64,000 nt of DNA from an uncultured Christensenella sp. GTDB taxonomy: Bacteria; Bacillota; Clostridia; Christensenellales; UBA3700. The notes beneath the pieces were generated by a model, which saw only the letters and a program-made list of their open reading frames with translations, was not told the origin of the DNA and ran no database searches. The stretch spans positions 101,856 to 165,855 of the forward strand of contig CASERZ010000005.1 of the NCBI GenBank assembly GCA_949290515.1, read 5' to 3'. Of the stretch, positions 48,665 to 63,201 are shown one piece after another (positions within the stretch are counted from its first letter, which is position 1; each line of letters opens with the position of its first letter). Position numbers and translations under genes: made by a program.

Positions 48665-48693
48665 TTGACACGTCCGCACAGAGGTGCTAAACT
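48665..48693 (+). promoter_or_regulatory. Orphan promoter-like element
   Basis: TTGACA, 17 nt, TAAACT. No ORF follows it. Confidence 0.5.
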
Positions 48694-48699
48694 ATAGTT

Positions 48700-48856
48700 A
48701 TAAAAAGCTCCGATAGCGTAAGATAAGAAGTATGCGAAAACTTACCTCAGTATCAATAAGACGTAAGCAATCGGAGAAAAATACTATGTGGGATTAAGAT
48801 TGTATAGCTATCATAATCCAAAAGAAAGACTTCGCTTTGACGAGGTCTTTCTTTTT
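48700..48856 (+). ncRNA. Candidate ~160-nt structured small RNA (unclassified)
   Basis: Bounded by the promoter at 48665-48693 and a terminator at 48823-48856 (AGAAAGACTTCG-CTTTGA-CGAGGTCTTTCT followed by TTTT). A long-range helix is possible between CTCCGAT (48708-14) and ATCGGAG (48770-76). No RBS-led ORF is present. Confidence 0.4.
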
Positions 48857-49139: not shown

Positions 49140-49168
49140 TTGAAGTTTTATATATATTATGTTATAAT
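49140..49168 (+). promoter_or_regulatory. Candidate promoter of the eight-gene operon (extended -10)
   Basis: TTGAAG, a 17-nt spacer ending in TGT, then TATAAT (extended -10: TGtTATAAT). It lies 55 nt upstream of the GGGAGG RBS and the ATG at 49223. Confidence 0.6.
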
Positions 49169-49222: not shown

Positions 49223-51157
49223 ATGACATCGCTTAAAGTCGCGATAGATTTGGGAAGCGACAAAGTAAAAGTCGCTTTTGCATATAAGGACGGAGAAAAA
49301 GCCGTCTACGGCAAGCTTGCCGACAGAGACGTTACGGGAAGTATCGTGACGCCTGCTATCGCTTATTACGACGAAGAGAGCGGACGCTGGCTCTTCGGCG
49401 AAGACGTCTACCGCGGTACGGACAGACCTTTTATCACGGTAGTAAAAATCAAGACGCTCATATCTCTGCTTATGCGCAGAGAGAACAAGGCCGTTACTTT
49501 GTCAAACCGCGAATTTTACCGCAACGGCTACGATTTTCCCAAGTTTTATTTTCCCGTAAAGAAAAAAAGCTCCGCCGACCTCAAAGAGGCTGTGGATTTG
49601 GATATGACTTTCAAAGGCGACGTTACGCCCGAAAAGGTATGCGAAAGCTTTTTCGTATATCTCGCTCAGCAGATAGTCAATCCCGCAATAATGCGTCTGG
49701 GTAAGGAGCGTAACCTCGAATTTGACGAAGTGGACTATGCTCTGGTGTATCCCGCAAAGGCGGGCAAGGAAGTCGTAGACGAGCTGAAAAGACTTGTCAG
49801 ATACGCTTTCGGCAAATTGCCGCGCACGGTAATTTCGGCTACGAAAGCACTGGGACTGCTTGCATATCACAGAGGCGCGCTTGCGGGCGACGAACAACTC
49901 GTTATAGTAGATATGGGCGAAGAGGATATCTCGGTGGCAAAACTTTCGCTCAACAGCGATAAAACCGTTATCGTCGACGGCGTAGACGGACACAATCAGC
50001 CTATGGATTTGGGCGGCAACGATATCGACTACGCAGTCAGGGATTTTCTCGAAAACGCCGTGTGCGAGAGAGAAACGCCGGGCGTACCTGCAGATATGAA
50101 CGATTTTGTCGCTGAGAGAGGCACTCATTCGGGACAGTTCCTTCTGATGACCGAAATAAAGAAAGCCAAAAACGCGCTTTCTCTTCCTGACGCGGTATAT
50201 GACAGAATATTCGAAAATGGCGTGCCCGTCAGTTTTCTAAGAGACGTGGTGGTACAGCGGAAAATTACGAGAGAGGATTTTTGCGACTGCATAGGCATTA
50301 CTAACGGCGACAAGATAGCGGGTCGTATAGCCGAATACATAATCGAGGAATTGCGCCGCTCGGTAAACGCCAAGGTAGGCAAACTCGTTTTGTCGGGAGG
50401 CGTAACGGAGACTTACGGGATTGTGAGATTTATCAAGCGAGTGCTCAAACAAAACGCCGTCAACGTGCAAGTGATTACTTTCGACGACTATTGCAACAAT
50501 GACGACGGGTTCAATATCCTTTCTTACGAGGATTCTGTTTTCGCGCCTGCGGTAGGCGGTGCGATAGTCGCGCTTAAGGGTTATGAAATCAAGACGGCTG
50601 CCGCGCTTTCGTACGGCACGTGGCAATACCGCAAGAAAGGAGACAAGTATTACAAAATACTCGATATATTCCTCAAAAAAGGACAGATACTTCCTCCCGA
50701 CGGAGGCAAATACTGCGTTTCGTCCTGCCTCAAATATCTCGACAAATGGGAGGGAAAAGTCGTCAACGAAGAGATTTTTTCCACGACCGCTACGGAAACT
50801 TGCGAGATAGGCGAGCCTGACAGCGCGCTCAGACTGAGTATGCAAAAACGCATCGACCTCAAAGTCGTTGCGGGCGGCAAGAGCAAGGGCGCGATTTATA
50901 TCTGTTACAGAGAGAGCGACGGCTCGCTTACGCCCGTACAAATCAAAGGCACGCTTTATTTTGACGAGGGAGTAAGGATTGACGGAGACGGAAGAGCCGT
51001 GCCGTATATCGAAAACAATCTATCAAAAAACGGAGCAAAGAATATTATCAAAATCCGACCGGCAGACAACGTATTCGAGATAAAATACGCCTGCTATAAA
51101 GACATTGTGCTAAGGTTCAGCGGCGTCGACGAATTTGACGTCGAGGGCGGCGATTGA
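49223..51157 (+). CDS. Hsp70/DnaK-like (ASKHA superfamily) ATPase with unique C-terminal domain
   Basis: IDLGSDKVKVAF (phosphate-1), VIVDMGEEDISVAKL (degenerate phosphate-2), DLGGNDIDYAVRDFL (Hsp70 DLGGEDFD-like), LSGGVTETYG (adenosine motif), APAVGGAIVAL. The last ~190 aa look beta-rich. Confidence 0.8.
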   Translation: MTSLKVAIDLGSDKVKVAFAYKDGEKAVYGKLADRDVTGSIVTPAIAYYDEESGRWLFGEDVYRGTDRPFITVVKIKTLISLLMRRENKAVTLSNREFYRNGYDFPKFYFPVKKKSSADLKEAVDLDMTFKGDVTPEKVCESFFVYLAQQIVNPAIMRLGKERNLEFDEVDYALVYPAKAGKEVVDELKRLVRYAFGKLPRTVISATKALGLLAYHRGALAGDEQLVIVDMGEEDISVAKLSLNSDKTVIVDGVDGHNQPMDLGGNDIDYAVRDFLENAVCERETPGVPADMNDFVAERGTHSGQFLLMTEIKKAKNALSLPDAVYDRIFENGVPVSFLRDVVVQRKITREDFCDCIGITNGDKIAGRIAEYIIEELRRSVNAKVGKLVLSGGVTETYGIVRFIKRVLKQNAVNVQVITFDDYCNNDDGFNILSYEDSVFAPAVGGAIVALKGYEIKTAAALSYGTWQYRKKGDKYYKILDIFLKKGQILPPDGGKYCVSSCLKYLDKWEGKVVNEEIFSTTATETCEIGEPDSALRLSMQKRIDLKVVAGGKSKGAIYICYRESDGSLTPVQIKGTLYFDEGVRIDGDGRAVPYIENNLSKNGAKNIIKIRPADNVFEIKYACYKDIVLRFSGVDEFDVEGGD

Positions 51158-51168
51158 CAGGAGGCGAT

Positions 51169-53988
51169 ATGGCTTTGAACAAAAACAAAAAATATACCGT
51201 CACTTGCGTGGACGGAGCGTTTGACAAAGATATTCAGAAATCGGGAATATCGGGAGAAATACGCCCCTATGACGCAAAGATGGCGGAGATGACCAAGTGC
51301 ATAGAGGAGCTAGACCGCTATGACGATTTTGCCGCGCTTAAAATCGAACCCGAAGTATACGAAAAAAGCGGGGACGGAGAGTACGGCATAAAGAGGTCGC
51401 ACGTACATTCGAGCGTCAACAGCCCTCAGGTAATACTAAGACATCAGCAACTTGCCGCTGCGCAGTTTCTCAAGGAATTGAGAGGATTCGGACTTCTTGC
51501 CGACGTAGTGGGAAGCGGAAAGACTTTCGAGGCGTGCACGGTGCTCAGCGAGCTTGCCGTAAGAGGCAAGATGAAGTCGCTTCTCGTAGTAGTGCCCGCG
51601 CAGGTATACGATGACTGGATAGAGGTACTCGAGGAAAAATTCGGGCTGGGCAAAGGCGTGCTTATGAGCGTAAAAACCCCTGATTTCGGGGAGTGCGAGC
51701 ATTTGCGCGAAAGCGGATTTATACATCCCAAACGTCCTGTAATCGTCAAGGCAGAGGACTTTGCGGAGTGGAAGGAAAGCGCGATTAAAAACGTACTTTT
51801 CGACGTGGTGGTCGTAGACGAAGCGCATCACTTGTGCAGCGAAGAGGGCAGATACGCCAAGGCTATGAAACTTCTCTCGCTTATGATGGTTACCAAGAAA
51901 AAAGCCAACAGCACTTACTGCATACTCTTGTCGGCTACGCCTCATTCGGGCAACCTCGACAAGATGTTCAGACTGTGGTATTTCATACGTTGCAAGGGCG
52001 GTAACCCCGACGACTTCGACGAAAAGGACGACAAGGACAGGACGGCAGACTACGCAAAGGAAAAGAAGTACTACAAGGAAAACGTGTGCAGAGGCGCGGA
52101 TACCGTAGCCGAATTCATCACGGCAGTAAAGAAGTACGAGATTGACAACAATTATTCCGAGCAGTTTGCCGAATACCTCAAATCCAAAAAAGAAGAGAAG
52201 AATTTCGCAAACGGAACCGAGGGGGAAAAGCAGATACTGAGAGAGGATTTTCTCAAGGACAACGGACATATACGTGCGGATATACTCAAGCGCGTTGCAA
52301 GCGCTTATCACAACGGCGTATTGCGTACGATAATGATACGTCAGCCCAACGAACTCAGCAAGACCAGATACGTATTCAACCGTTATTTCTTTCCTTTGAA
52401 AAACGACGTGCCCAGAGTTATTCAGGTGCAATTCGACAAGGGTGTAAACGCAGAAGTCGATTTGCAGGAGATTAATTCCGACGGCGCGGTGCGTGCGGAC
52501 GGTAAAGTATATTCCCTTAGAGATTACGCCGAGATGACCGACAAGACGGGAAGAGTACAGGAGAGATATGCCGAGCTTCTCGTGCCCGCGATTTTGGGTG
52601 CTACGGGTTCGTTTGCAGACAAGAGCATATTCGACAAGAAAAACTCTTTGAGATATTACTGGCAGCAGTTTGCGAGAAAGAGTGCGGCAGAGAGTGACAA
52701 CGTATTCAGATTTATGCCCGCTACGGGAGACAGTTACGCATACAAACTAGCCGAACTCAAATATCTTCTCAGCCAACACGCGGGAGAAAGAGTACTCGTA
52801 TTTTTCGACTACGATTTGCCTCGTACCAGCAGAGGATACAGACAGTGGGAAAAAGTCGAAGCCGATTTGCTTGCCGACGAGAAGTTTGCAGGCAGGATAA
52901 TAATCGGCAGAGAAGACGAAAAGCAAAAGGCTATCTCCGACTTTGCAAAGCGCGAAGACGCGGTGCTCGTAGTCGAGGACAGTGCGTTTACCGAAGGCGT
53001 TAACTTGCAGGACAGCAGAATAATAATCAATTTTCAGGTTACGCCCGACCCGCTTGCTATGGACCAGAGAATAGGACGTATATTCCGTCTGGGGCAAGCC
53101 AACGACGTAGTGATTTACTCCTTTGCAGATATGAATAAGCTCGAGGGATTTGCGCTTGCGTATTTCAACACGATAGGACTTTTGTCCAGCAACAGCGGAG
53201 ACGCGACGATTATCGCGGGAAGCAACAACGAGCGTATGGTTGCTCTGAGATGTCCCGCCTGCGGCAAAGTCGCGCTCTATTCCAAGCAAGAGTACGAGTA
53301 CAGAAAGAGAAAAGGACTTCTGTACTGTTTTGCAAAAAAACAATGTATACAGGACGACCCCAAGGGTACGCTTATGGAGGAAATCAACGTCTACGAATTC
53401 AAGTGTTCGACTTGCGATACCGTATTCGCAAGGAGCATAGGAGACGGGGGTTATAAGTGTATATCCAAGACCGAAGGAGAGAGGGGCACGATGTGCAACT
53501 CGGGAGACAAGGGGGACAGAGATTATTATTGCAGCAAGCTGTGCGCAATGTTGCACTGTTCGAGATTCAAGAGCGAGATGGACGGAAAGTGCGCGGTTAT
53601 CAATGCTTACCGCCACAATCCTCACACTACGGCAGTGGAACTCGCTACGCTATGCGCCAATTGCAAATACAAAGCGGGTTGTCCCGCAAAGTGCCGTTTC
53701 GGTACCGACAAGGAAAGCATTACGCAGTGTTCGGTATGCGATTACAGCGAATGCTCGCCCAAACCGCACGTCATATCTTTTGACGAAAAATGGGCGGCGC
53801 GTTGTCCCAAGTGCGAAGACGAGGGCAACAAGGGATATTTGCGTCCCGTCGTAGCGCGTACTTTTGCGGCATACATAAGAGCGGCGTGGGAATTCAAACA
53901 CGACAACGGCGAGTCTTTCTGCGCAAACCTCGAGAAGGAAGCGGACAAGGTAGCCGACATAAGAGAGATGCTCTCTATGGACAGATAA
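51169..53988 (+). CDS. SNF2-family helicase/translocase with C-terminal multi-zinc-ribbon tail
   Basis: Motif I VVGSGKTFEA (51511-51525 encodes GSGKT), motif II VVVDEAHHL, motif III LSATPHSG, EGVNLQ, and motif VI QRIGRIFRLGQ. The last ~245 aa hold 22 Cys, including CPAC, CSTC, CANC, CSVC and CPKC. The start could also be the TTG at 51154. Confidence 0.85.
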   Translation: MALNKNKKYTVTCVDGAFDKDIQKSGISGEIRPYDAKMAEMTKCIEELDRYDDFAALKIEPEVYEKSGDGEYGIKRSHVHSSVNSPQVILRHQQLAAAQFLKELRGFGLLADVVGSGKTFEACTVLSELAVRGKMKSLLVVVPAQVYDDWIEVLEEKFGLGKGVLMSVKTPDFGECEHLRESGFIHPKRPVIVKAEDFAEWKESAIKNVLFDVVVVDEAHHLCSEEGRYAKAMKLLSLMMVTKKKANSTYCILLSATPHSGNLDKMFRLWYFIRCKGGNPDDFDEKDDKDRTADYAKEKKYYKENVCRGADTVAEFITAVKKYEIDNNYSEQFAEYLKSKKEEKNFANGTEGEKQILREDFLKDNGHIRADILKRVASAYHNGVLRTIMIRQPNELSKTRYVFNRYFFPLKNDVPRVIQVQFDKGVNAEVDLQEINSDGAVRADGKVYSLRDYAEMTDKTGRVQERYAELLVPAILGATGSFADKSIFDKKNSLRYYWQQFARKSAAESDNVFRFMPATGDSYAYKLAELKYLLSQHAGERVLVFFDYDLPRTSRGYRQWEKVEADLLADEKFAGRIIIGREDEKQKAISDFAKREDAVLVVEDSAFTEGVNLQDSRIIINFQVTPDPLAMDQRIGRIFRLGQANDVVIYSFADMNKLEGFALAYFNTIGLLSSNSGDATIIAGSNNERMVALRCPACGKVALYSKQEYEYRKRKGLLYCFAKKQCIQDDPKGTLMEEINVYEFKCSTCDTVFARSIGDGGYKCISKTEGERGTMCNSGDKGDRDYYCSKLCAMLHCSRFKSEMDGKCAVINAYRHNPHTTAVELATLCANCKYKAGCPAKCRFGTDKESITQCSVCDYSECSPKPHVISFDEKWAARCPKCEDEGNKGYLRPVVARTFAAYIRAAWEFKHDNGESFCANLEKEADKVADIREMLSMDR

Positions 53989-53998
53989 CGGAGGACGT

Positions 53999-55639
53999 AT
54001 GGCAAAGATATACGTAGGTAACGAATACGCGGGTACTTTCGAAAGCATAGCGAAGATGTATTCGCAAGGATGCGTCCCCGAGGGGCTCATCAAAAGCGCG
54101 GACGCCAACAGAATAGTAACCGCCGCGCAGGAATTCGTATTGACCAAAGGCAGAGGAAAAGCAATGGACGCGGGCGCGGACGCAACGATAGGAGAAGACG
54201 GCGCGTCCTGGTTTGCCGTATTCAGAGGCGCGAAACCCTTAAGTCGCAATGCCGAATGGCTTATGTTCGTGGAGACCGTCAAGGAGTATTTTCACCGCAA
54301 TTATTCGCTTGTGGAATACTGCCCGAGGGATTACAGGCTGAGTGCTGACGAAGCGGCTTTGCAAAAGGAAAACATATCGAGATTTTTGAGATTGTTTTAT
54401 CCGGGTTACGCTTTCGAGATATACAGAGGAGACGAGCAGGAAGGTATTGAAGATATCTACGGCGCGTCGCTGAGAATGGAGCTTACCGACGGCACCGGAG
54501 AGGCTGTACCCGTGCTTGGAAAAGTGTTTTTCAGAAAAACTCCAAAGGGTATACTTGCGTACGGCAAGGACGATGCGGAGGATATAAACAAATATCTTCA
54601 GGCGTTTGACAAACCGCAGGACAACTACGCTTCCAATCAGAACAGCCTAGAGCTTACCGACACGGTGATAGAAGCTCTCGACAGGCTCGTGCACCCCGCA
54701 GAAAGTGCGGAGTATATTCTTGACGATTGCATAATCTTTGCGAGCGACAACGATAAAAAAGCCGTGGAGATTATGGTCGAAAAAGGACCTAACGAAAGAG
54801 TGGATATTCTGTGCGTGAGTATGTCTGTGATGAATATATCGCACGTGAGATGGCAAAACGACAGCTACAATATCCGTCTGGGAGACAAGACCGTCCTCAA
54901 AGCCAACATAGGCATAGGCGGAAAGTTCAATCTGTGGTGCAACAACTGCCGTAAAAAGACCCCTCTCGTGGAGTCGGGCAAAATAAAGTTTTCTTACGGC
55001 GGAAAGAAAAAGCTTTTAGTCATTGATTTGGCGCGCGAGGACTTCGGCATACCTGCCGACATACTTGCGGAGATAAAAGCTAGCGGAGTATTTTCAAAGC
55101 ATATCGTTAAGATTTGTTGCAACGAAAATATACGTCTCGCGGGGGCTTGCGTACGTTACGTCTGCGACGGAGACAGCATTACTCTCGACGACGGTCAAAT
55201 CAAGTGCAAAAACTGTCCTTATCCCGAAGTAACGTTTGCGTGCGAGGACGGAGTTGTGCGCTATACGGCAAATCTGGCTTTTGCCCGCGACAGAATGACG
55301 CTCGTACCCAAAGATAAAGTCGTGGAGTGCGAGTGTTGCAAGCGCAACTTCTACAGCGAGGAGAAAAAGGACGGTTTCGTCTGCGACTTCTGTCGCACGG
55401 CTAAGATAGGCATAGCCGGTATGGATTACTCTGACTACAAAGAGGGCAACAAACTCTATCGCAAGTATGCGGGAATGTTGCCGCTTTCTCTAAGAGTGCA
55501 AAATATAAGAAAACACAAATACTGCAAAGAGGATGAGGATTGCATACTCTTTATTCTCAACAAAACCACGCTCATTTTCTACAAAGAAAAGCTGGGCGAA
55601 AAAGGCTTTTTGCCTTCACCCGAAAAAATAGAATTGTAA
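53999..55639 (+). CDS. Orphan protein with C-terminal CxxC-rich region
   Basis: RBS GGAGGA and a 10-nt gap to the upstream gene. CNNC, CKNC, ECECC and CDFC clusters lie between about 54938 and 55405. No recognisable enzymatic motif. Confidence 0.75.
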   Translation: MAKIYVGNEYAGTFESIAKMYSQGCVPEGLIKSADANRIVTAAQEFVLTKGRGKAMDAGADATIGEDGASWFAVFRGAKPLSRNAEWLMFVETVKEYFHRNYSLVEYCPRDYRLSADEAALQKENISRFLRLFYPGYAFEIYRGDEQEGIEDIYGASLRMELTDGTGEAVPVLGKVFFRKTPKGILAYGKDDAEDINKYLQAFDKPQDNYASNQNSLELTDTVIEALDRLVHPAESAEYILDDCIIFASDNDKKAVEIMVEKGPNERVDILCVSMSVMNISHVRWQNDSYNIRLGDKTVLKANIGIGGKFNLWCNNCRKKTPLVESGKIKFSYGGKKKLLVIDLAREDFGIPADILAEIKASGVFSKHIVKICCNENIRLAGACVRYVCDGDSITLDDGQIKCKNCPYPEVTFACEDGVVRYTANLAFARDRMTLVPKDKVVECECCKRNFYSEEKKDGFVCDFCRTAKIGIAGMDYSDYKEGNKLYRKYAGMLPLSLRVQNIRKHKYCKEDEDCILFILNKTTLIFYKEKLGEKGFLPSPEKIEL

Positions 55640-55649
55640 GGAGGCGGAT

Positions 55650-58600
55650 ATGAATAAGAACGGTATTTTTTCTTCACGCGACGACACCGATTATTCTCAA
55701 AGCACGCTCAGAAGACTGTCCAGTGACAAGATACTGCTTTTGGTATGCGCGGGCATAGCCGCTTTCTGCGATTTGATTACGTTTATAGTCTCGCTGGTGG
55801 CGGGCTACGGCGCGGGGCAGGTAGTGCTGACCGTATTTATGCTTATAGCCGACGGCCTGTTCATAGCGGGAATATGTTTTACCAACTTCCGCTTCAAATA
55901 CTCGCTGGCAGTTTGGATAGGTTACGTAGCCGTATCGTTCGTGCTTTCGTTGATAATGCTCGTAGGCTGTTCGGGCGGGTCAGGCGTTTATACTATGACT
56001 ACGGCGGCAACCGCACTGGTAATTTTGTCGCACCTTATTTTGTGGATAGTGATAGGCGTATGCGCGCTTGCCGACAATTTCTTCCCTCGCAAGTCTTACG
56101 TTAAGATTGTGATTTGCGTAGTTACGGGCTTGGCGGTACTGCTTACTTTTGCATATTCGATATATGTGGCGGACAAGGGCTATTACGGACAAAACGAGGA
56201 CAACAACATCAGAGTAGTTGCATATACCGAGGATTTTGAGCTTGACGGCTACAAAGCCAGCAGCGTAGTGGAAGGAAGAGGAGATAAAATTGTTATACCC
56301 TCTACCTTCAACGGCAAAAAAGTAGTATCCATATCCGCCAATATTCTCAAAGACAAGTCTATCAATAATATAGTAATTGAAGGCAGCGAAATGCTGGAGA
56401 TAAAAGGAATAATGGACGATACGGAAATCTCTCAATCGCTGAGGATAGGAGTTTCCCAACACATTATAGACGCATACAGAGCAAAGCACGCGGCAGATAC
56501 TTCTGATTATTCGCTGACTTTGGTCAACGCTTTTTATCCCGCCGACCTTGAAGAAGACCAAACGTATATCACTTTTGCCTACGAGTGGATGGAAAGCAAT
56601 CTTGTCAGGGGTCAACTTATTCCTACGTGGATAGGCAAGAAGGGCGAAGTATTCAACCTCGAAAGCTATGCTCAGGCAAACAGTATCGCATACGTAAACA
56701 ACAGAAATATGACGGATGACTTAGAGTTGGATTGGAATGTATCCAACAATCTCGGCTATATCTTCAAGAGCGTTACCTTTGACGGCGAGAGCGTGGAAGA
56801 CATAACTGTCGACGAAAGTATCTACAGAGCAAAAGTCAGCTTTGACAGGATTTACAAGGTAGAGATACTCGACGACAACGATACGCTTTACGAGCCTGAC
56901 GAGGACTTCAAAACTATGAATTTGTACGGCAATACTTACGAATACCGTTATGTTGCGGAAAGTCTTGCCAATTCCTTCTTGCAGGAAATATCGAGAGAGG
57001 GATTCAATCTCACGTGGAAGTACGATTACAACGGCGCTACCTACTATGCCGACGATTTATCTAAGGCACTTGCAGAGGGCAAAGTTTCGTTCACAAACGG
57101 AAGAGTTCAGCTTACGCCCGAGTGGCAGCTCAAATCTCCCGTAATCAACGGGGTTACGACCGACAAGGCAAATAATTCGTTTGTATACGGCGACGATATG
57201 ACTTTGAGCGTAGACGCTACCGCTCCCGCACAAGGTTTCAATCTGAGTTACGAATGGAAGGGCGTGACATCCAACCTCGGCACTTCAAAGGATATCCTTT
57301 TGAATTGCGTTACCCCCGACCATACGGGACGATATACGGTAACCGTAACGGCTTCTTCTTCTCAGACTTCGCTCACGTCCGAGGCAACGGCTTATACCGA
57401 CGTGGACGTTGCTAAAAAGATATTGCGTTTTGAATGGACTTTCCCTCAAGACGCGGTATATGACGGTACTTCGCGTCAAGCGGTATGCGAAATAGTAGCG
57501 GCAGACGTAGTCGCAGACGACGTGCTCAATATTGCTACCGATGCGACGGCTGTAAAAGACGCAGGCAATTATTCGAGTAAAGTTACGCTTTTGAGCGGGG
57601 ACAATGCGTCCTATTACGAGATGGACGCAAGCTGTAAATTCTCATACAGCGTAGCAAAACGTTCTCTTACTCTCGTATGGGAGGATAAAGAGTTTACTTA
57701 CAACGGAAATTCGCAGTATCCCTCAGTTGCTTCGCTGACCAACGCGATAGCGGGTGAGGACGATGAAATTTTGTCGGGCATAACCTACTCCAATTACGGC
57801 AAAAACGCAGGTAGCTACAACGTAAGAGCTTCTCTTCCCGCCGACAGCAATTATTCTGTAACGCAGGGCGCGAGCAAGAGTTACTCTATCAATAAGAAGG
57901 AAGTTTCGCTCGTATGGCAGAGCGTGGGCACTTACGTCTACAACGGCTATGCGCAGTATCCCGTCGCTACCGATATTACGGGTACGCTTGACAGCGATAA
58001 GACGGCGGTATTCGCTAATATCGTATATTCCGAATACGGCATAGGCGCGGGAGAATATACGGTCAAGGCAAAACTCGGAGCTGGCTCGTCAAATTACCTG
58101 CTCACGGGCGAGATGCAAAAGACTTACTCGATTGACAAGAAAGCTTTGACAATCAACGCAGTCGCGCAGAATAAGACTTATGACGGCAAGGCGGGCGGAA
58201 GCTTTTCCGTAACTGTTACGGGGCTTGTAGGCAACGATACGGTTGCTTCGCTCGGTACTCCCGTATTTGCGGGCGACGCGGTCAACGCCGTTGACGCGGG
58301 AAGTTATACGCTTTCGGTAAGCTACGCGCAAAACTCAGTCAACAAAAACTATTCTATCAGCTACAATGACGGTACTTTCGTCATTTCTCCCAAGACGGTA
58401 AGCGCGGTATGGTCGTCGCAGAGAGAATTTGTATTTGACGGCAACGGACATTCTCCGTATATCGTTACGCAAGGTACGGAATACGAAAATCAGGCAGTGA
58501 TTAGCTACGAGTACTATACTTCGGACGGACAGAAAGTCGGCTCTCCGATTGAGGAGGGAGAATATTACGTACAGGCAAAATTACAAAGTAAGAATTTTGT

Positions 58601-58652
58601 GTTTACGGGGACGAGCGTAGACTTCAGAATTACGGCACAGGAGGAGGCTTAA
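55650..58652 (+). CDS. Five-TM membrane protein with large extracellular repeat region (BspA-type LRR, Ig-like, five MBG-like repeats)
   Basis: Five hydrophobic helices within residues ~36-190. IVIPSTFNGKKVVSISANILKD..INNIVIEG is LRR-like. TPDHTGRYTVTVTA is Ig-like. There are five ~85-aa repeats with Y[DN]G..Q.P and AG.Y.V cores (about 57411-58640). Confidence 0.8.
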   Translation: MNKNGIFSSRDDTDYSQSTLRRLSSDKILLLVCAGIAAFCDLITFIVSLVAGYGAGQVVLTVFMLIADGLFIAGICFTNFRFKYSLAVWIGYVAVSFVLSLIMLVGCSGGSGVYTMTTAATALVILSHLILWIVIGVCALADNFFPRKSYVKIVICVVTGLAVLLTFAYSIYVADKGYYGQNEDNNIRVVAYTEDFELDGYKASSVVEGRGDKIVIPSTFNGKKVVSISANILKDKSINNIVIEGSEMLEIKGIMDDTEISQSLRIGVSQHIIDAYRAKHAADTSDYSLTLVNAFYPADLEEDQTYITFAYEWMESNLVRGQLIPTWIGKKGEVFNLESYAQANSIAYVNNRNMTDDLELDWNVSNNLGYIFKSVTFDGESVEDITVDESIYRAKVSFDRIYKVEILDDNDTLYEPDEDFKTMNLYGNTYEYRYVAESLANSFLQEISREGFNLTWKYDYNGATYYADDLSKALAEGKVSFTNGRVQLTPEWQLKSPVINGVTTDKANNSFVYGDDMTLSVDATAPAQGFNLSYEWKGVTSNLGTSKDILLNCVTPDHTGRYTVTVTASSSQTSLTSEATAYTDVDVAKKILRFEWTFPQDAVYDGTSRQAVCEIVAADVVADDVLNIATDATAVKDAGNYSSKVTLLSGDNASYYEMDASCKFSYSVAKRSLTLVWEDKEFTYNGNSQYPSVASLTNAIAGEDDEILSGITYSNYGKNAGSYNVRASLPADSNYSVTQGASKSYSINKKEVSLVWQSVGTYVYNGYAQYPVATDITGTLDSDKTAVFANIVYSEYGIGAGEYTVKAKLGAGSSNYLLTGEMQKTYSIDKKALTINAVAQNKTYDGKAGGSFSVTVTGLVGNDTVASLGTPVFAGDAVNAVDAGSYTLSVSYAQNSVNKNYSISYNDGTFVISPKTVSAVWSSQREFVFDGNGHSPYIVTQGTEYENQAVISYEYYTSDGQKVGSPIEEGEYYVQAKLQSKNFVFTGTSVDFRITAQEEA

Positions 58653-58654
58653 TT

Positions 58655-59800
58655 ATGAAATGCGGATATTGCAATACTGAAATAATCAGACCTCTCGAAC
58701 TGTATGACGGCAGATGGTGTTGTCCCAACTGTAAAAAGGACGTATTCCCGGGCGTTGACAGCGAATTTGTGATTGACGCGCTCAACAAGGAACTTTACGT
58801 CAGGTCGGAAGAATATTTTTACAAGTGGCTTACGCGCCGCGACGACGACAAGCAGACGAGATTCAAGTACCTTGACAGAGCAGTAAATCTTTGCAGCGAA
58901 GCGGCTTTCCGTTCGCACCCCGCAGCGCTTATGCGTATGGGATACTATTACGACAACGGCTATATAGATTTTACAAAGAGCGAGGAAGAACGCTGGACGG
59001 TCGCCTACTTCTATTACAAAGCGGTGTGTTTCAACGTGCATAAAAGCGTCGAAACCGCTGACGGAGAGGCGTATGCGGACGAGATAAGAGAAATCAAAGT
59101 CGAGTGCGCAAGGCGTCTTGCAAATATGCTCAAAAAGCCCCCGCGCGCTGTCGGTAAAAAAGGCAGCTTTGACGGCTATGTGGATTTGGACGCTCTGAGA
59201 AAATCAGTACTCGACAAGATAAAGGAGCTCGGCGGAGAATACGACGAGGGAGAATACGTGCTTACAGGCAAACACGATTACGATAATGCCGACGTGGCAT
59301 ACGTGGCGTGGAGGTCGTGTTTTGACGAGGAAAGAGCACCCCTTCTGGGGATATTCAGACTTACCAAACAAGAAGCGCAAAAGTTTTTCAGACCTTTGGG
59401 CAACGGTTACTCCGTACCCGAGAGAATAAGCAGAGATACGCGCCTTAAAATCGCAGAAACTTTCGACGAAAAAGAAGTCGAAGGAAGATTTTACGAATTC
59501 AGAAATTCCGACGCTTTGATAAAGTACGCGGAGGGTTGTCCCGACAACGGTATTTACGTATGCTTTATAAACGGCGCGGGAGGACACAAATATCTCAAAA
59601 AGCGTCAGATAAACGCTTTTGCAAAATGTATGAGCGCGCAAAACAACGCGCATATCAAAAGACTTATATCGGCGAAGAAGTACAATGCGAGTGTATTTTA
59701 CGACGACGACGTTTTCAGATATATGGAAAAGCGTACGTCTATGGAAAAAGCCGTAGAGAAATTCATAAGCGATATATGTGAGGAGGATAAAAATAATTGA
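58655..59800 (+). CDS. N-terminal zinc-ribbon protein with Sel1/TPR-like repeat
   Basis: MKCGYCNTE..WCCPNCKK ribbon. AALMRMGYYYDNGYIDFTKSEEERWTVAYFYYKAV resembles a Sel1 repeat. There is a 2-nt gap to the upstream gene. Confidence 0.75.
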   Translation: MKCGYCNTEIIRPLELYDGRWCCPNCKKDVFPGVDSEFVIDALNKELYVRSEEYFYKWLTRRDDDKQTRFKYLDRAVNLCSEAAFRSHPAALMRMGYYYDNGYIDFTKSEEERWTVAYFYYKAVCFNVHKSVETADGEAYADEIREIKVECARRLANMLKKPPRAVGKKGSFDGYVDLDALRKSVLDKIKELGGEYDEGEYVLTGKHDYDNADVAYVAWRSCFDEERAPLLGIFRLTKQEAQKFFRPLGNGYSVPERISRDTRLKIAETFDEKEVEGRFYEFRNSDALIKYAEGCPDNGIYVCFINGAGGHKYLKKRQINAFAKCMSAQNNAHIKRLISAKKYNASVFYDDDVFRYMEKRTSMEKAVEKFISDICEEDKNN

Positions 59801-61275
59801 TAGAATTAGACGCGCTGATACGCATACTCGACGATAATAAGGTCAATTATGCGAGAAAATTCAAGGATATAGAAGTCAACGGCTATGACAGCAATCAGTG
59901 TCAGCGGCTCTCTTTCGAGATACGCGAGGACATAGAAAGGCTTCTCAAGATAGGTTTTGCAGGCGGTATGGACGTTACGCTCAAAAATTCCATATACGAG
60001 CTTACGGAAATAGCCGTTAAGCTTTCGGGATACAAAGCCGCTTTGAAACTAGACGATTATATCGAAAAGAAAAAGGAAATATTGCACAAATACAGAAATT
60101 ACAAAGGAGATAAAAATATGCCCGATATCAAAAAAGAAGTTATTGCATACATCGACGATTCGCTTGCGGGCGTCAACGCGATGATAATAGAAGAAAAGAG
60201 CGAGTACAAGAAGAGTATTCTCAACGCTTCCAAAGACTTGCTCTCACAGCTCAAGGACAAGGTTAGCAACGTATTCGACAACGTGTCCGTAGATGCTGCG
60301 GACTGCGCGGCTAATCTTTTGGGAGACAGCAAGTACGGCTTGTTTGCGTGGAGAGATTACGTGGGCAGAAATATGGTATTCGATACCGTCAACACGCACC
60401 TCGAGGAAGCAATCTCGGAGGCGGATAAGTGGGCGGAGCTTACCAAGGCGGTCAATAAGCGTAACTACGCAAAGGACAAGGATATAGTCAAGTATACCGA
60501 AGACGTATTTTCCGGTTATTCGCGCGTAGCGGCGGTCAAGGAAAAGGGAGATGCATTCTTCTCCAGACTCAAGGACTTCGAGGAACAATTCGACGTGCAA
60601 AACGAGTCTTACGACAAGGTAAAGCAAATCAACGATGATATTGCCCAGATGCAAAAGGAAATATCAGAGATAATAGACAAGATGGACAACGGCGAAATTC
60701 TCGAAGAAGAGGCGGATTCGCAGATAACGATGCTCGAGCAGGATATCGAAATCCGCGAGATGGAGCGAGAACAGTACCGTTCGAGCATACGTATGATGAA
60801 CAACAATCTGCTTGCTATGCGCAGATTGCTTTCGAAGTTCAAGAGACTCGAGCTTATATACAGAATGTATCAGCAGATAGAGCCCAACCTTTTCTACACA
60901 ATGTTTGAGTATATCGACTTCAGACAGTTCCTCGATATATTGAGTTACGGCGCGAGTGAAGAGGATATAACGATGGCAATAAGCTACTACGACAACATTA
61001 TGGAAAACGTAGCTATGCAGACCAGACATATGGCTGAGACGGACGAGAGATTCGCCAACGTAAACAAGGTTATGGAAAAGGAACAGTCCGTAGTTCACAG
61101 ACAAGAGAACAAGGTGGACAGAGAAAAGGAAAAACAGGAACTCAAAGCACGTATGGAAGCGAGAAGAAAACGCTATGCAGGCAAGACGGCGCAGCCCGCG
61201 TCCGAGCCTGAGAGCAAGCAGGAAAAAGAAGAGCGGCAGGACAACGGCGAAGTACAAATCACGGATATAGTGTGA
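59797..61275 (+). CDS. Coiled-coil protein ending in EVQITDIV (possible ESCRT-III/PspA-like C-terminal half)
   Basis: TTG start overlaps the upstream TGA (TTGA), with GAGGAGGA 9 nt upstream. Long heptad-like helices are followed by a charged, presumably disordered tail and the C-terminal motif at 61249-61272. Confidence 0.75.
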   Translation: MIELDALIRILDDNKVNYARKFKDIEVNGYDSNQCQRLSFEIREDIERLLKIGFAGGMDVTLKNSIYELTEIAVKLSGYKAALKLDDYIEKKKEILHKYRNYKGDKNMPDIKKEVIAYIDDSLAGVNAMIIEEKSEYKKSILNASKDLLSQLKDKVSNVFDNVSVDAADCAANLLGDSKYGLFAWRDYVGRNMVFDTVNTHLEEAISEADKWAELTKAVNKRNYAKDKDIVKYTEDVFSGYSRVAAVKEKGDAFFSRLKDFEEQFDVQNESYDKVKQINDDIAQMQKEISEIIDKMDNGEILEEEADSQITMLEQDIEIREMEREQYRSSIRMMNNNLLAMRRLLSKFKRLELIYRMYQQIEPNLFYTMFEYIDFRQFLDILSYGASEEDITMAISYYDNIMENVAMQTRHMAETDERFANVNKVMEKEQSVVHRQENKVDREKEKQELKARMEARRKRYAGKTAQPASEPESKQEKEERQDNGEVQITDIV

Positions 61276-61299
61276 TAAGATAAGGTCGAAAAGGAGAAT

Positions 61300-62031
61300 A
61301 TGACGATTATGGCAAGAGAAAGACAGAGAGAAAGAGGAGAAAGACTCAACAATCCTTACAGCGAAATGCAAAAGCAGAATATGCGAAAACTCGACAACAA
61401 GATACTCGAGGGCAAGAAGACGGAACTCGAAAAATCCGTCGAAGACCTTGCGCGCAAGGTAGTAGAGAGCGAACACAAGTACGGTCCCGACCACTTCAAC
61501 ACGAGAGTGTTGTCGATGTTTTATACCGTTACGTTCAGTTTACAGAACGTAGTCGGAATGATGTTTTCGATGAAAGAGGCTATGCAGGTGCTTTCGCAGA
61601 CCATCAACATAATGGACGATACCTTCAAGTTTATCGACGAGATGATGAGCCTCGAAAACTACAAGAGATATACCGCGTGGGGAAGGCACAAGCAAAGAAG
61701 CAAAATAAGAAAATTCGTAAAAATGAACAGCAACCGTATGAAAGCCATTATGGATATGATAAAGGGCTACGGAAAGATTGCCGACGCTATGCTTGTTGCT
61801 ATGAGCAGCTTTGATAAAAAGCTCAAAAAATCAATGGAGAAAAAAGGCGGAAAACAAAACGACGTTATGGCGGGCTATCAAAACGAAGCGGCAAAACAGC
61901 TTCAGAAATACCGCGAGGAATATAAGGCAGAAAACGCCGATAGCGCAGATGATTCTAGCGCGCCTTCGGCGGGTGCGGGCGCATCTTCGGGCGCAAGCGA
62001 CGGCGAAATAAATATCGACGATATAGTCTGA
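61300..62031 (+). CDS. Coiled-coil protein ending in EINIDDIV (possible ESCRT-III/Snf7/PspA-like)
   Basis: AAGGAGA RBS. 243 aa: basic N-terminus, four or five predicted helices rich in M/K/E (MKEAMQVLSQTINIMDDTFKFIDEMM), a Ser/Ala/Gly/Asp tail, and the C-terminal motif at 62005-62028. Confidence 0.75.
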   Translation: MTIMARERQRERGERLNNPYSEMQKQNMRKLDNKILEGKKTELEKSVEDLARKVVESEHKYGPDHFNTRVLSMFYTVTFSLQNVVGMMFSMKEAMQVLSQTINIMDDTFKFIDEMMSLENYKRYTAWGRHKQRSKIRKFVKMNSNRMKAIMDMIKGYGKIADAMLVAMSSFDKKLKKSMEKKGGKQNDVMAGYQNEAAKQLQKYREEYKAENADSADDSSAPSAGAGASSGASDGEINIDDIV

Positions 62032-62061
62032 TAATACCTAAGTTATTTATTGAGGACGTTT

Positions 62062-63201
62062 ATGGCAGATAAAACAAAAAAAGAGGGCATAGAAGAGCTC
62101 GAAAAACAGCTTAAAAAAGTTACTGACGAAATACGCGCTATTTTGGGCGGTCGCAAGGATAAAAAGGATTTGTCGGACGATGAGAAAATGCAGCTGAGAG
62201 GCAAGTATTCACAAGCTGCGCAGATATCCCGCACGCTTTCTATGCGTTGCGCCGACAGAGAGCAGAGCGATAAGTACAAGACTTTTTATAAGCAACTCAG
62301 CGACGCGGCGGCAAGTTACGGCTCGGTCATTAAAAGCAAGATTCCCGACACTACGCTCGACGACGTCAAAGGTCTCGACAACGTAAAAGCTTTGGTCAAG
62401 AGCTTTATATTTATGGCTCAGCACCCCGAAATACTCAAGTACTATCATATCGAGGGCGGTCTCGGAATGTTGATGTACGGCGCACCGGGTACAGGTAAAA
62501 CTATGTTTGCCGAAGCCATAGCCAATGCTATGAAGCTGCCTTTGTTCATCGTTACGCCTGCTGATATATTCAAATCCTACGTGGGTGAGTCCGAGCAGGC
62601 AGTAAAACAGATATTCCAGGAAATCGACGCTTGTCCCGACGGCGCGATTTTGTTTGTGGACGAGTGCGAATCTATATTCAGCAAAAGAGGTCAGGATACC
62701 AAGGACTACAAAGCCGCTGTCACGACAGAGCTTTTGCAGCGTATCAACGGTTTCGGCGTAGACGGCTCAAAGCGTATTATGATTGCAGCTACCAACCGTC
62801 CCGACGTAATCGACCCCGCTTATCTCAGATACAAGAGATTTTCTCATCTTGTACACGTTACTCCTCCCGACAAATCGGCTAAGCGCGCAATAATCGAGAG
62901 CAAGCTCAAAGGTATCGCGCTTGTAGGCATTACGGTAGACGATATCGCAGAGGAAACGGAAAAACGTACGCGCGAGAAAATCAAAGGTGCAGAAGTAGTC
63001 ACGTCCTATTATTCCGCCGCTGATATCTGCGGTATAATAGAAGAGGCTTGCCGTCTGGCGCTCGAAGAGATTCAAGCCAACAACAGCAATCAGCCCATAC
63101 CTTTGACAAAGACTATGTTCGATAAAGCTTTCGATAAAATACCGCCCAGCATATCGGCAGAGGTGCTGGATATATACGAAGCCTTTTCTCGAAGAGAATA
63201 G
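62062..63201 (+). CDS. Single-cassette classical-clade AAA+ ATPase (Vps4/spastin/katanin-like) with helical N-domain
   Basis: Walker A GAPGTGKT (62479-62502), SYVGESEQAVKQIF, Walker B ILFVDECE, ATNRPDVIDPAYLRYKRF. The ~95-aa N-terminal region is helical with no TM segment. Confidence 0.85.
   Translation: MADKTKKEGIEELEKQLKKVTDEIRAILGGRKDKKDLSDDEKMQLRGKYSQAAQISRTLSMRCADREQSDKYKTFYKQLSDAAASYGSVIKSKIPDTTLDDVKGLDNVKALVKSFIFMAQHPEILKYYHIEGGLGMLMYGAPGTGKTMFAEAIANAMKLPLFIVTPADIFKSYVGESEQAVKQIFQEIDACPDGAILFVDECESIFSKRGQDTKDYKAAVTTELLQRINGFGVDGSKRIMIAATNRPDVIDPAYLRYKRFSHLVHVTPPDKSAKRAIIESKLKGIALVGITVDDIAEETEKRTREKIKGAEVVTSYYSAADICGIIEEACRLALEEIQANNSNQPIPLTKTMFDKAFDKIPPSISAEVLDIYEAFSRRE

What the first reader, a model, noticed from the sequence alone, without database searches (positions are those of the whole stretch)
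51169..53988. SNF2 helicase fused to a 22-cysteine multi-zinc-ribbon tail; Zn-ribbon theme repeated in three operon proteins
Seen: canonical SNF2 motifs I-VI are followed from about 53251 by ~245 aa containing 22 Cys by my count. At least five are CxxC dyads (CPAC, CSTC, CANC, CSVC, CPKC), plus CSKLC and CPAKC. The next gene has CNNC, CKNC, ECECC and CDFC clusters (about 54938-55405). The fifth gene opens with a classic CGYC...CPNC ribbon (58655-58745). Such an array of ribbons on a translocase is unusual. It could mediate nucleic-acid or protein recognition, or assembly of the complex. There is also a ~250-aa insertion between SNF2 motifs III and IV.
Basis: seen in the sequence. Interest (0 to 1): 0.6.

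Follow-up and report, generated by a model that had tools for sequence, protein, structure and literature searches.

The report
SNF2 motor with novel 20-cysteine tail
A DNA-motor protein (SNF2 family) of an uncultured gut Clostridia bacterium ends in a well-conserved, confidently folded metal-binding domain built on 20 cysteines; the domain matches no known domain or structure and occurs only in one undescribed multi-ATPase operon, so it marks an unknown molecular machine.

Summary
The SNF2 gene (51169-53988) has intact ATPase motifs. Its last 245 residues hold 22 Cys, including 5 CxxC dyads, which ties for the highest Cys density in this 1.72 Mb genome.

Of the 22 Cys, 20 are kept in 131 full-length relatives, down to about 25% tail identity. 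Two positions show Cys-to-His swaps. This fits about five four-ligand metal sites.

The tail folds confidently (AlphaFold pLDDT 81-85). It has no Pfam family, no PDB sequence match and no structural match (best Z 4.7). Only the first ~50 residues look ribbon-like; the centre is a helical Cys-rich core. It is therefore not simply a multi-zinc-ribbon.

Among 1.84 billion representative proteins, only 93 carry the tail, almost all at the C-terminus of this SNF2 family.

The family is patchy: 11 of 301 genomes of its order, and none in about 385 other genomes of the class. It always sits in the same gene order: Hsp70-like ATPase, SNF2, Cys-rich protein, membrane MBG-repeat protein, Zn-ribbon protein. 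Relatives often add a helicase-nuclease that this window lacks.

The function is inferred: most likely an adaptor domain of a foreign-nucleic-acid surveillance system.

The scan had already found this same domain on other genomes.

The parts
51169..53988 (+). SNF2-family ATPase gene (939 aa from ATG 51169; P0001 numbering starts 5 residues earlier at TTG 51154)
   Evidence: ORF. GGAGG lies 6 nt before the ATG. The 100%-identity database cluster is 939 aa. Pfam SNF2-rel_dom 2e-13 and Helicase_C 3.5e-10.
51439..52248 (+). ATPase lobe 1 (residues 96-365) with motifs I GSGKT, II DEAH and III SATP
   Evidence: Pfam match 112-365. Motif positions. K123, D222, E223 and H225 are invariant in 45 orthologues.
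52396..52743 (+). Variable family-specific insert between the lobes (residues 415-530)
   Evidence: 24% mean identity against 59% in the lobes; length 90-151 aa among orthologues. No Pfam match.
52744..53208 (+). ATPase lobe 2 (residues 531-685) with motifs IV-VI
   Evidence: Pfam Helicase_C 531-647. Q638, R639, G641, R642 and R645 are invariant.
53209..53985 (+). Cys-rich C-terminal domain (residues 686-944; 22 Cys)
   Evidence: conservation; AlphaFold pLDDT 81 and 85; no known domain or fold.
53251..53346 (+). Module 1: C700, C703, C725, C731, the likely first four-ligand site (zinc-ribbon or rubredoxin-like knuckles)
   Evidence: Beta strands flank CPAC. Distant relatives have a regular second CxxC, or His at the C731 position. 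Weak structural likeness to desulforedoxin, ribosomal, MCM and aRF1 zinc ribbons, Z 2.6-3.4. The assignment of ligands to sites is inferred.
53404..53496 (+). Module 2: C751, C754, C769 (plus the lineage-specific C781), a beta-rich second site
   Evidence: C751 and C769 are invariant. C754 is replaced in several clades by a nearby His (Cx4-5H). C781 is lost in many relatives.
53530..53814 (+). Helical Cys-rich core: C793, C797, C802, C813, C834, C837, C843, C847, C859, C862, C867, C884, C887
   Evidence: pLDDT 90-95. Nearly all 13 Cys are invariant to ~25% identity. The spacing between C837, C843 and C847 varies among relatives.
53860..53985 (+). C-terminal helical hairpin (residues 903-944) with conserved ARTF, W912, F922 and the dispensable C923
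   Evidence: Helices 219-227 and 235-256 of the model. 58% mean identity. C923 is replaced by V, S, T, Y or A in distant relatives.
49223..51157 (+). Gene 1: very divergent Hsp70-like ATPase, always directly upstream of the SNF2 gene
   Evidence: The single sequence has no Pfam or PDB hit. A 12-member family profile hits DnaK nucleotide-binding domains at E 3e-6. Synteny.
53999..55639 (+). Gene 3: 546-aa orphan with a conserved Cys cluster (C314-C509, nt 54938-55525)
   Evidence: C272, C314, C317, C374, C384, C389, C403, C406, C444, C447, C462, C465, C509 and H368 are invariant or nearly so in 40 homologues. No Pfam match.
55650..58652 (+). Gene 4: N-terminal membrane helices plus MBG-type repeat protein
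   Evidence: Pfam MBG_2 5.8e-12. Orthologues are 916-2108 aa and keep the same position.
58655..59800 (+). Gene 5: N-terminal 4-Cys ribbon (C3, C6, C23, C26; nt 58661-58732) on a helical protein
   Evidence: All four Cys are conserved in the 4 orthologues aligned.
59797..63201 (+). Genes 6-8: coiled-coil protein, 243-aa protein and classical AAA ATPase (variable 3' module of the operon)
   Evidence: Pfam AAA 1.9e-32 and Vps4_C 9e-4. PADLOC IetA-like 3.6e-34. This module is absent from the 5-gene form in G096.
49140..49168 (+). Promoter-like site (TTGAAG-17-TATAAT with TG) 55 nt before gene 1
   Evidence: Consensus scan. A terminator-like hairpin at 48820-48855 separates the operon from rpsF-ssb-rpsR.

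Best explanation
The gene encodes an active SNF2-type, ATP-driven double-strand-DNA translocase. It belongs to a small family found, among the genomes searched, only in one order of gut Clostridia (earlier scan notes name it Christensenellales).

Its last ~250 residues form a previously undescribed, independently folding metal-binding domain. Twenty near-invariant cysteines staple this domain together. They most likely form five four-ligand sites: two beta-rich ribbon or rubredoxin-like modules, then a compact helical core holding about three sites, then a helical hairpin. Zinc is the more likely metal, but iron is not excluded.

The domain occurs only on this SNF2 family, and the family occurs only in one fixed gene order. 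I therefore read the tail as the family-specific adaptor that places the motor on its substrate DNA and/or docks it to operon partners. Any protein partner must be among genes 1, 3, 4 and 5, or a host component, because the 5-gene form keeps the tail.

The operon as a whole is most likely an accessory, envelope-anchored system that surveys foreign nucleic acid. Related versions carry a helicase-nuclease as the probable effector. The window's 8-gene version has no such gene in the operon.

Shown: presence, conservation, confident fold, lack of known relatives, restricted architecture, synteny, patchy distribution.

Inferred: metal binding and site count, metal identity, adaptor role, defence function.
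For: ATPase likely active: motifs I, II, III and VI are present and invariant in 45 orthologues.

Metal binding:
- 22 Cys in 245 aa, ties for the top Cys density in the genome.
- All 22 are at least 87% conserved in 45 orthologues down to 38% identity.
- 20 are kept across 131 full-length tails.
- Cys-to-His swaps occur at the C731 and C754 positions, and module 1 takes the regular CxxC...CxxC form in distant members.

Autonomous fold: pLDDT 81.1 (259 aa) and 85.4 (218 aa), with the core at 90-95.

No known relative: Pfam, NCBIfam and PADLOC give nothing over threshold for the tail. A PDB profile search gives 0 hits at E<=10. Foldseek gives nothing at E<=1. VIA-align best Z is 4.7 and 4.4. The atlas returns only its own family.

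Selective constraint: the tail is as conserved as the ATPase lobes (51-58% against 59%).

Restricted architecture: only 93 representatives among 1.84e9 proteins carry the tail, nearly all at the C-terminus of 909-1143-aa proteins.

Fixed synteny of genes 1-5 in every locus examined, including the most distant.

Accessory character:
- 11 of 301 genomes of the order, in 5 families, and variable within genera.
- None outside the order among about 385 other genomes of the class.
- Different flanking genes in different genera.

Conflict-system flavour:
- The SNF2 core is closest to DrmD, BrxH, HmaA, DpdE and RapA models.
- 10-gene forms insert a DUF4011/AAA_11/AAA_12/MTES_1575 helicase-nuclease, matching PDC-S37 at 1e-105 and Hhe at 1e-51.
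- An IetA-like AAA with a trypsin-like protease, and a TIR protein, lie next to other versions.
Against: - No metal site could be measured. The tools return no coordinates, so the split into five sites is inferred from sequence patterns only.
- The tail is only mildly basic: net charge is +2.3 on average (range -5 to +9) and +4 in the core. This does not argue strongly for DNA binding.
- The flanks are housekeeping or sugar-metabolism genes, not classical defence islands or mobile elements.
- No relative of the tail was found in phage records.
- No recognisable nuclease or other effector is in the window's own 8-gene operon. The helicase-nuclease and the 630-aa gene are missing from the operon here.
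- All hits to defence-system SNF2 models lie far below their curated cut-offs.
Confidence: 0.6

Rival explanations
1. The tail, or its helical core, carries iron-sulfur clusters or rubredoxin-type Fe(Cys)4 centres rather than structural zinc. That would make the motor sensitive to redox or oxygen, or give it a cluster role like that in XPD, DinG, AddB or EndoIII.
For: - The host order is generally regarded as strict gut anaerobes, where Fe-S proteins are common (general knowledge, not tested here).
- Thirteen closely spaced invariant Cys sit in a compact helical core.
- The CxxCx5C stretch (C834, C837, C843) recalls the CX2CX5C part of the cluster motifs of AddB, Dna2 and EndoIII (my recollection, not tested).
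- The best small-module structural match is desulforedoxin, an Fe(Cys)4 protein (Z 3.4, rmsd 1.8 over 34 residues).
Against: - There is no CxxCxxCxxxC or CxxxCxxC motif (sequence).
- Spacings within the C834-C847 group vary among relatives. That suits independent knuckles better than a fixed cluster loop.
- Cys-to-His swaps are typical of zinc sites.
- No Fe-S family is hit in Pfam, even at E<=10.
Confidence: 0.25
2. The tail is mainly a nucleic-acid-gripping module. It would work like the tandem C-terminal zinc ribbons of E. coli topoisomerase I or the Cys-rich region of PriA, guiding or clamping DNA for the motor rather than docking proteins.
For: - Helicases and topoisomerases commonly use Zn modules to hold DNA strands (established knowledge: Topo I C-terminal domain, PriA CRR, RecQ Zn subdomain, MCM).
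- The core segment 791-852 is net positive (+4 on average).
- R760, R789 and K795 are invariant or nearly so.
- The tail persists in the minimal 5-gene form.
Against: - Overall charge is weak and ranges from -5 to +9 among orthologues.
- There is no structural match to Topo I, PriA or RecQ zinc domains. The only Topo I row was Foldseek E 4.9.
Confidence: 0.35
3. The protein is a housekeeping RapA-like RNA-polymerase recycling factor, and the tail is a lineage-specific RNA-polymerase-binding domain.
For: - RapA is the closest solved relative of the ATPase core (E 2.6e-13).
- It is the only SNF2 homologue detected in this genome.
- The operon sits next to rpsF-ssb-rpsR here and in one relative.
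Against: - The RapA equivalog model scores 88.5 bits against a cut-off of 576.
- The family is present in only 11 of 301 genomes of the order, and varies within genera.
- It is not beside ssb in another genus: 127 kb away in G132.
- It is always locked into an operon with a membrane repeat protein and, often, a helicase-nuclease.
Confidence: 0.05

Closest known systems
RapA (HepA), bacterial RNA-polymerase-associated SNF2 ATPase (PDB 6BOG, 4S20, 8SO8)
   Same: It is the closest solved sequence relative of ATPase lobe 1 (E 2.6e-13, residues 111-270). Both are bacterial SNF2 motors of about 950 aa with a non-ATPase C-terminal domain.
   Different: - The score is far below the RapA equivalog cut-off (88.5 against 576 bits).
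- The tail profile, searched against all PDB chain sequences (RapA entries among them), found nothing even at E<=10.
- RapA is a stand-alone housekeeping gene. This family is accessory and locked into one operon.
Defence-system SNF2 helicases: DISARM DrmD, BREX BrxHI/BrxHII, Hma HmaA, Dpd DpdE, Zorya ZorD
   Same: They give the best HMM matches for the ATPase core (DrmD 1.3e-31, BrxH 4e-30, HmaA 2e-25, DpdE 1.5e-22). All are SNF2 motors inside multi-gene accessory operons. Zorya also pairs a membrane component with an SNF2 enzyme.
   Different: - Matches cover only the ATPase lobes. Scores of about 108 bits lie far below equivalog cut-offs of 610-1500 bits.
- None of their partner genes (DrmABC, PglX/PglZ/BrxABC, ZorABC, Dpd genes) is in the operon.
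- None of these models extends into the tail.
Cysteine-rich metal modules of other nucleic-acid motors: DUF1998/MZB of YprA/MrfA/DrmA-type helicases, PriA Cys-rich region, topoisomerase I C-terminal zinc ribbons, SWIM fingers of bacterial SNF2 proteins
   Same: The concept is shared: Cys4 sites appended to, or inserted in, a helicase or topoisomerase, used for DNA handling or partner contacts (established knowledge; DUF1998 is described in PMC11090510).
   Different: - These have 1-4 sites. This tail has about 5 sites on 20 Cys in one ~250-aa domain.
- No sequence or fold match to any of them was found. That is an absence of matches, not proof of difference.
CoCoNuT type III systems (Hsp70-like CnuD with a UPF1-like helicase-nuclease CnuH), PMC11090510
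   Same: An Hsp70-like ATPase with degenerate motifs appears together with a UPF1-like SF1 helicase fused to a nuclease, plus coiled-coil and zinc-ribbon proteins, in a predicted conflict operon. The 10-gene forms of the present operon have an analogous pair.
   Different: - No McrB GTPase or McrC (DUF2357) is present, which defines CoCoNuTs.
- In that paper SNF2 appears as an associated component in domain legends, not as a fixed core gene.
- The window's own operon lacks the helicase-nuclease.

Membership tests
SNF2 (SWI2/SNF2) ATPase family | SNF2_N-type lobe 1 and Helicase_C lobe 2 over Pfam thresholds, with motifs I, II, III and VI | tested here: met
   PF00176 scores 50.5 bits (cut-off 24.9) and PF00271 scores 40.5 bits (cut-off 23.5). 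GSGKT, DEAH, SATP and QRIGRIFRLGQ are present and invariant in orthologues.
RapA / HepA | Score over the NCBIfam equivalog cut-off (NF003426, 576 bits) | tested here: not met
   88.5 bits, covering lobe 1 only.
RapA / HepA | Housekeeping distribution (present throughout the lineage) | tested here: not met
   11 of 301 genomes of the order, and variable within genera.
DISARM DrmD | Score over the equivalog cut-offs (NF038317 610 bits; NF038318 950 bits) | tested here: not met
   108.2 and 107.4 bits.
DISARM DrmD | Neighbouring drmA, drmB, drmC or methylase genes | tested here: not met
   Operon proteins give no DrmA, DrmB or DrmC hits in PADLOC or Pfam.
Zorya ZorD | Score over the equivalog cut-off (NF041790, 1500 bits) and a fused nuclease with zorABC neighbours | tested here: not met
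   22.8 bits. No nuclease domain is in the protein. No ZorA, ZorB or ZorC hits among the neighbours.
BREX BrxHI/BrxHII | Full-length match and a BREX gene context (pglX, pglZ, brxA-C) | tested here: not met
   The PADLOC match is partial: two stretches, the best covering residues 85-278, at 103 bits. No BREX genes are in the window's operon.
Zinc-ribbon domain families (Pfam Zn_ribbon_*, NCBIfam ECs_2282 CxxC) | Score over the family threshold | tested here: not met
   Best Pfam E-values are 0.6-7, at 7-11 bits against cut-offs of 25-34. ECs_2282 scores 17.2 bits against 37.
Zinc-ribbon / rubredoxin-like fold (module 1 only) | Two CxxC-type knuckles on a beta hairpin pair, with structural similarity to solved ribbons | tested here: inconclusive
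   CPAC plus C725/C731 are flanked by strands. Distant relatives have CxxC...CxxC. Z is only 2.6-3.4 to desulforedoxin, ribosomal, MCM and aRF1 ribbons.
Fe-S cluster helicase domains (XPD/DinG, AddB/Dna2 type) | Canonical cluster motif and homology to a known Fe-S domain | tested here: inconclusive
   There is no canonical ferredoxin or radical-SAM motif and no Pfam or PDB match. Metal identity cannot be decided in silico.
CoCoNuT (McrBC-derived) systems | McrB-like NxD GTPase and McrC DUF2357 protein in the operon | tested here: not met
   No such Pfam hit in any operon protein, here or in the relatives examined.

The most novel reading that the evidence does not exclude
The SNF2-Cys20 protein is the DNA-reeling motor of a new kind of envelope-anchored immune machine, built from a lid-less Hsp70, the SNF2 motor, three metal-finger proteins and a surface repeat protein. 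Optional modules are a helicase-nuclease and an AAA ATPase. In this reading the 20-Cys domain is the hub that links a membrane-side signal to motor activation on incoming foreign DNA. The logic resembles Zorya, but the parts are unrelated.
Probability: 0.3. Interest if true: 0.8.

Novelty: new variant of a known kind. Interest (0 to 1): 0.6.

Why it matters
SNF2 motors are among the best-studied DNA translocases, and their accessory domains decide what they act on. This one carries a ~250-aa accessory domain with about five metal sites and no detectable relative in Pfam or the PDB. It is as conserved as the ATPase itself, and it is confined to one undescribed 5-10-gene operon of small-genome gut Clostridia.

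Solving the domain would add a new metal-binding fold. Finding its ligand, whether DNA, a partner protein or a redox signal, would give the first handle on an operon that joins an Hsp70-like ATPase, an SNF2 motor, an AAA ATPase and, in relatives, a helicase-nuclease. If the operon is an immune system, it would be a new one in abundant but uncultured members of the human and animal gut flora.

Tried and rejected
- **Complex prediction, tail with gene 3, both as alignments.** The tool's verdict was 'no answer' (score 0.01, mark 0.32). This is no evidence either way.
- **Fold searches.** Foldseek against the PDB, VIA-align wide and the atlas on the 259-aa model gave only chance-level rows, or the terminal helical hairpin. 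I refolded the tail without the hairpin and searched again; best Z was 4.4.
- **Sequence searches on the tail.** The PDB profile search gave 0 hits at E<=10. The language-model atlas search of the tail and of gene 3 gave no usable hit. Pfam at E<=10 gave only sub-threshold zinc-ribbon fragments.
- **Homology between the tail and gene 3.** Rejected: hhalign probability 6.8%.
- **Phage origin.** No tail-bearing relative is in 50,697 phage records; only generic lobe-1 or lobe-2 hits.
- **Riboswitch or leader upstream of the operon.** No Rfam match near threshold.
- **Literature.** Three full-text searches found no description of this operon or domain; CoCoNuT (PMC11090510) was the nearest theme.
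- **Site-by-site zinc count from the model.** Not possible, because the tools return no coordinates.
- **Reading the tail as a strongly basic DNA-binding tail.** Not supported by charge.


Full report
**Observation**

The ORF 51154/51169-53988 (+) is an SNF2-family ATPase. I number residues from the TTG-started translation P0001. The real start is almost certainly ATG 51169, which has GGAGG 6 nt upstream, and the identical database cluster is 939 aa.

The ATPase signals are clear:
- Pfam finds SNF2-rel_dom at residues 112-365 and Helicase_C at 531-647.
- Motifs GSGKT (120), DEAH (222), SATP (260) and QRIGRIFRLGQ (638) are present.
- The catalytic residues are invariant in 45 orthologues. The motor is therefore expected to be active.

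From residue 700 (nt 53251) to the end there are 22 Cys in 245 aa, against 8 in the first 699. Measured against all long ORFs of the 1.72 Mb genome, 22 Cys per 245 aa ties for the highest value; the median is 6 and the 99th percentile is 17.

The Cys motifs quoted for the next gene (CNNC, CKNC, CECC, CDFC at nt 54938-55394) and for the fifth gene (CGYC...CPNC at its first 26 codons) are also present.

**Conservation**

A database search restricted to the tail found 84 clusters. All are 731-985-aa proteins with SNF2 domains, down to 38% tail identity. In 45 of them, each of the 22 Cys is kept in at least 87% of sequences, and 16 are invariant.

An exhaustive profile search of 1.84 billion representative proteins found only 93 with the tail. 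Nearly all have it at the C-terminus of 909-1143-aa proteins. The short hits cover only part of the profile and look like fragments.

Across the 131 full-length tails, 20 Cys are essentially constant, while C781 and C923 are often replaced. Three patterns point to metal ligands:
- The C731 position becomes His in one lineage.
- The C754 position is replaced in several clades by a His a few residues on (Cx4-5H).
- In distant members, module 1 takes the regular CxxC...CxxC form.

The tail is as conserved as the ATPase lobes: 51-58% against 59% mean identity to the window protein. The inter-lobe segment 415-530 is only 24% identical and varies from 90 to 151 aa.

**Structure**

AlphaFold with the family alignment gives a confident model: mean pLDDT 81.1 for residues 686-944, and 85.4 for 686-903. 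Residues ~790-895 score 90-95.

The order of elements is:
1. Two beta-rich modules, one around C700/C703/C725/C731 and one around C751/C754/C769.
2. A helical core carrying 13 Cys (C793 to C887).
3. A short strand and a helical hairpin.

Only the first part is ribbon-like. It aligns weakly with desulforedoxin and with ribosomal, MCM and aRF1 zinc ribbons (Z 2.6-3.4).

As a whole, and with the hairpin removed, the domain matches nothing:
- Foldseek against the PDB finds no row at E<=1.
- VIA-align against 48,161 chains gives best Z of 4.7 and 4.4.
- The atlas returns only its own family.
- A profile search of PDB sequences finds nothing at E<=10.
- Pfam at E<=10 gives only sub-threshold ribbon fragments.

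Twenty constant Cys fit five four-ligand sites. I could not verify the partition because no coordinates are returned.

There is no ferredoxin-type or radical-SAM-type motif. The spacing within C834-C847 varies among relatives. Together with the Cys/His swaps, this favours structural zinc. Iron is not excluded, either as rubredoxin-type centres or as clusters; the host order is generally regarded as anaerobic, which I did not test.

**Context**

The gene is second in a co-directional operon, 49223-63201:

| Gene | Product | Evidence |
|---|---|---|
| 1 | Very divergent Hsp70-like ATPase | The family profile hits DnaK nucleotide-binding domains at E 3e-6; the single sequence hits nothing |
| 2 | The SNF2 motor | Above |
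| 3 | 546-aa orphan with 12-13 conserved Cys | |
| 4 | Membrane protein with MBG repeats | |
| 5 | Protein opening with a conserved 4-Cys ribbon | |
| 6 | Coiled-coil protein | |
| 7 | 243-aa protein | |
| 8 | Classical AAA ATPase | |

The order of genes 1-5 is kept in every relative I looked at, including those with only 25-30% tail identity. The 3' end varies:
- **5-gene form** (G096): ends after gene 5.
- **8-gene form**: the window and a 66%-identical relative at the same gltX-rpsF-ssb-rpsR site.
- **10-gene form** (G207, G259, G007, and by its gene list L025): inserts a 630-aa orphan and a 1500-aa DUF4011/AAA_11/AAA_12/MTES_1575 helicase-nuclease between genes 6 and 7. In PADLOC the helicase-nuclease matches PDC-S37 at 1e-105 and Hhe at 1e-51.

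In the window's own operon both of these genes are missing. Elsewhere in the genome the 630-aa protein was not found with this query. A 30%-identical SF1 helicase lies on another contig.

One distant clade adds seven upstream genes, including an IetA-like AAA and a trypsin-like protease. Another has a TIR-domain protein next door.

**Distribution**

The tail was found in 11 of 301 genomes of the order, spread over five families. It varies within genera, for example 2 of 6 in one genus. It was found in none of about 385 genomes from other orders of the class.

The flanking genes differ between genera. In G132, ssb lies 127 kb from the operon. The flanks are housekeeping or sugar-use genes rather than mobile elements. 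No tail-bearing relative is in phage records.

**Interpretation**

The SNF2 core is nearest to RapA among solved structures. Among family models it is nearest to DrmD, BrxH, HmaA and DpdE. Scores of about 90-108 bits lie far under the equivalog cut-offs of 500-1500 bits, and none of those systems' partner genes is present. It is not a member of any of them.

The most economical reading has three parts:
- It is an active dsDNA translocase.
- Its family-specific, metal-stapled C-terminal domain adapts it to this operon's task, by holding DNA, by docking partners, or both.
- The operon is an accessory system dealing with foreign nucleic acid.

Because the 5-gene form keeps the tail, any protein partner must be among genes 1, 3, 4 and 5, or host factors. 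The tail's charge is only mildly positive, so it does not settle DNA against protein binding. The tail and gene 3 are not homologous. The recurring Cys clusters are a shared chemistry, not a repeated domain.

**Relation to earlier scan notes**

The same Cys-rich SNF2 tail and operon had already been noted, and followed up, on other genomes in this scan (e1-3246894, e1-2305193, e1-4832742, e1-4849537). My independent tests agree with them:
- about 20 conserved Cys;
- no known fold;
- RapA as the nearest solved core;
- an 8-10-gene operon.

This report adds the Cys/His swap evidence, the identification of C781 and C923 as dispensable, the 5/8/10-gene series, the absence of the helicase-nuclease from this window's operon, and the genome-wide Cys-density ranking.

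**Verdict**

This is a real, conserved and apparently undescribed metal-binding domain on a known kind of motor. Its function is inferred only.

Noticed in passing
window 59797-63201 compared with L013, L020, L022, L025: Relatives carry two extra genes between gene 6 and gene 7: a 630-aa orphan and a 1500-aa DUF4011/SF1 helicase with an MTES_1575 nuclease domain (PADLOC PDC-S37 and Hhe-like). The window's operon lacks both, so this copy may be a reduced form without the probable effector.
   Followed up: partly
L015 (G096:C1:99500-117500): A minimal 5-gene form of the operon (genes 1-5 only) ends in about 1.1 kb without long ORFs and is followed by hrcA-grpE. I did not test whether the gap holds remnants of gene 6.
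   Followed up: partly
L026 1119-7905: In the most divergent clade the operon is preceded by seven co-directional genes, including an IetA-like AAA ATPase directly followed by a trypsin-like protease, and a second AAA (RuvB_N-like). This looks like an Iet-type ATPase-protease pair attached to the system.
   Followed up: partly
L024 6143-7498: A TIR_2-methyltransferase fusion protein lies immediately upstream of gene 1 in one relative, on a 914 kb scaffold.
   Followed up: no
window 62050-63201: The operon's AAA ATPase matches PADLOC IetA models (3.6e-34, covering 31-292 of 374 positions) as well as Pfam AAA and Vps4_C. This may only reflect general classical-AAA similarity.
   Followed up: no
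window 48665-48856: A promoter-like site (TTGACA-17-TAAACT) is followed by a strong terminator-like hairpin (48820-48855), between rpsR and the operon. No Rfam family matches it (best E 0.017, far below gathering score).
   Followed up: partly
G000:C3:111814-115056: Elsewhere in the same genome a 1926-aa open frame is 30% identical to the operon-type DUF4011 helicase-nuclease of relatives. It is a separate Hhe/PDC-S37-like gene outside the window.
   Followed up: no
window 45847-46830 (-): A 327-aa ORF between gltX and rpsF has no Pfam or PADLOC match. It is absent from the syntenic relative L023, where gltX is followed directly by rpsF.
   Followed up: no
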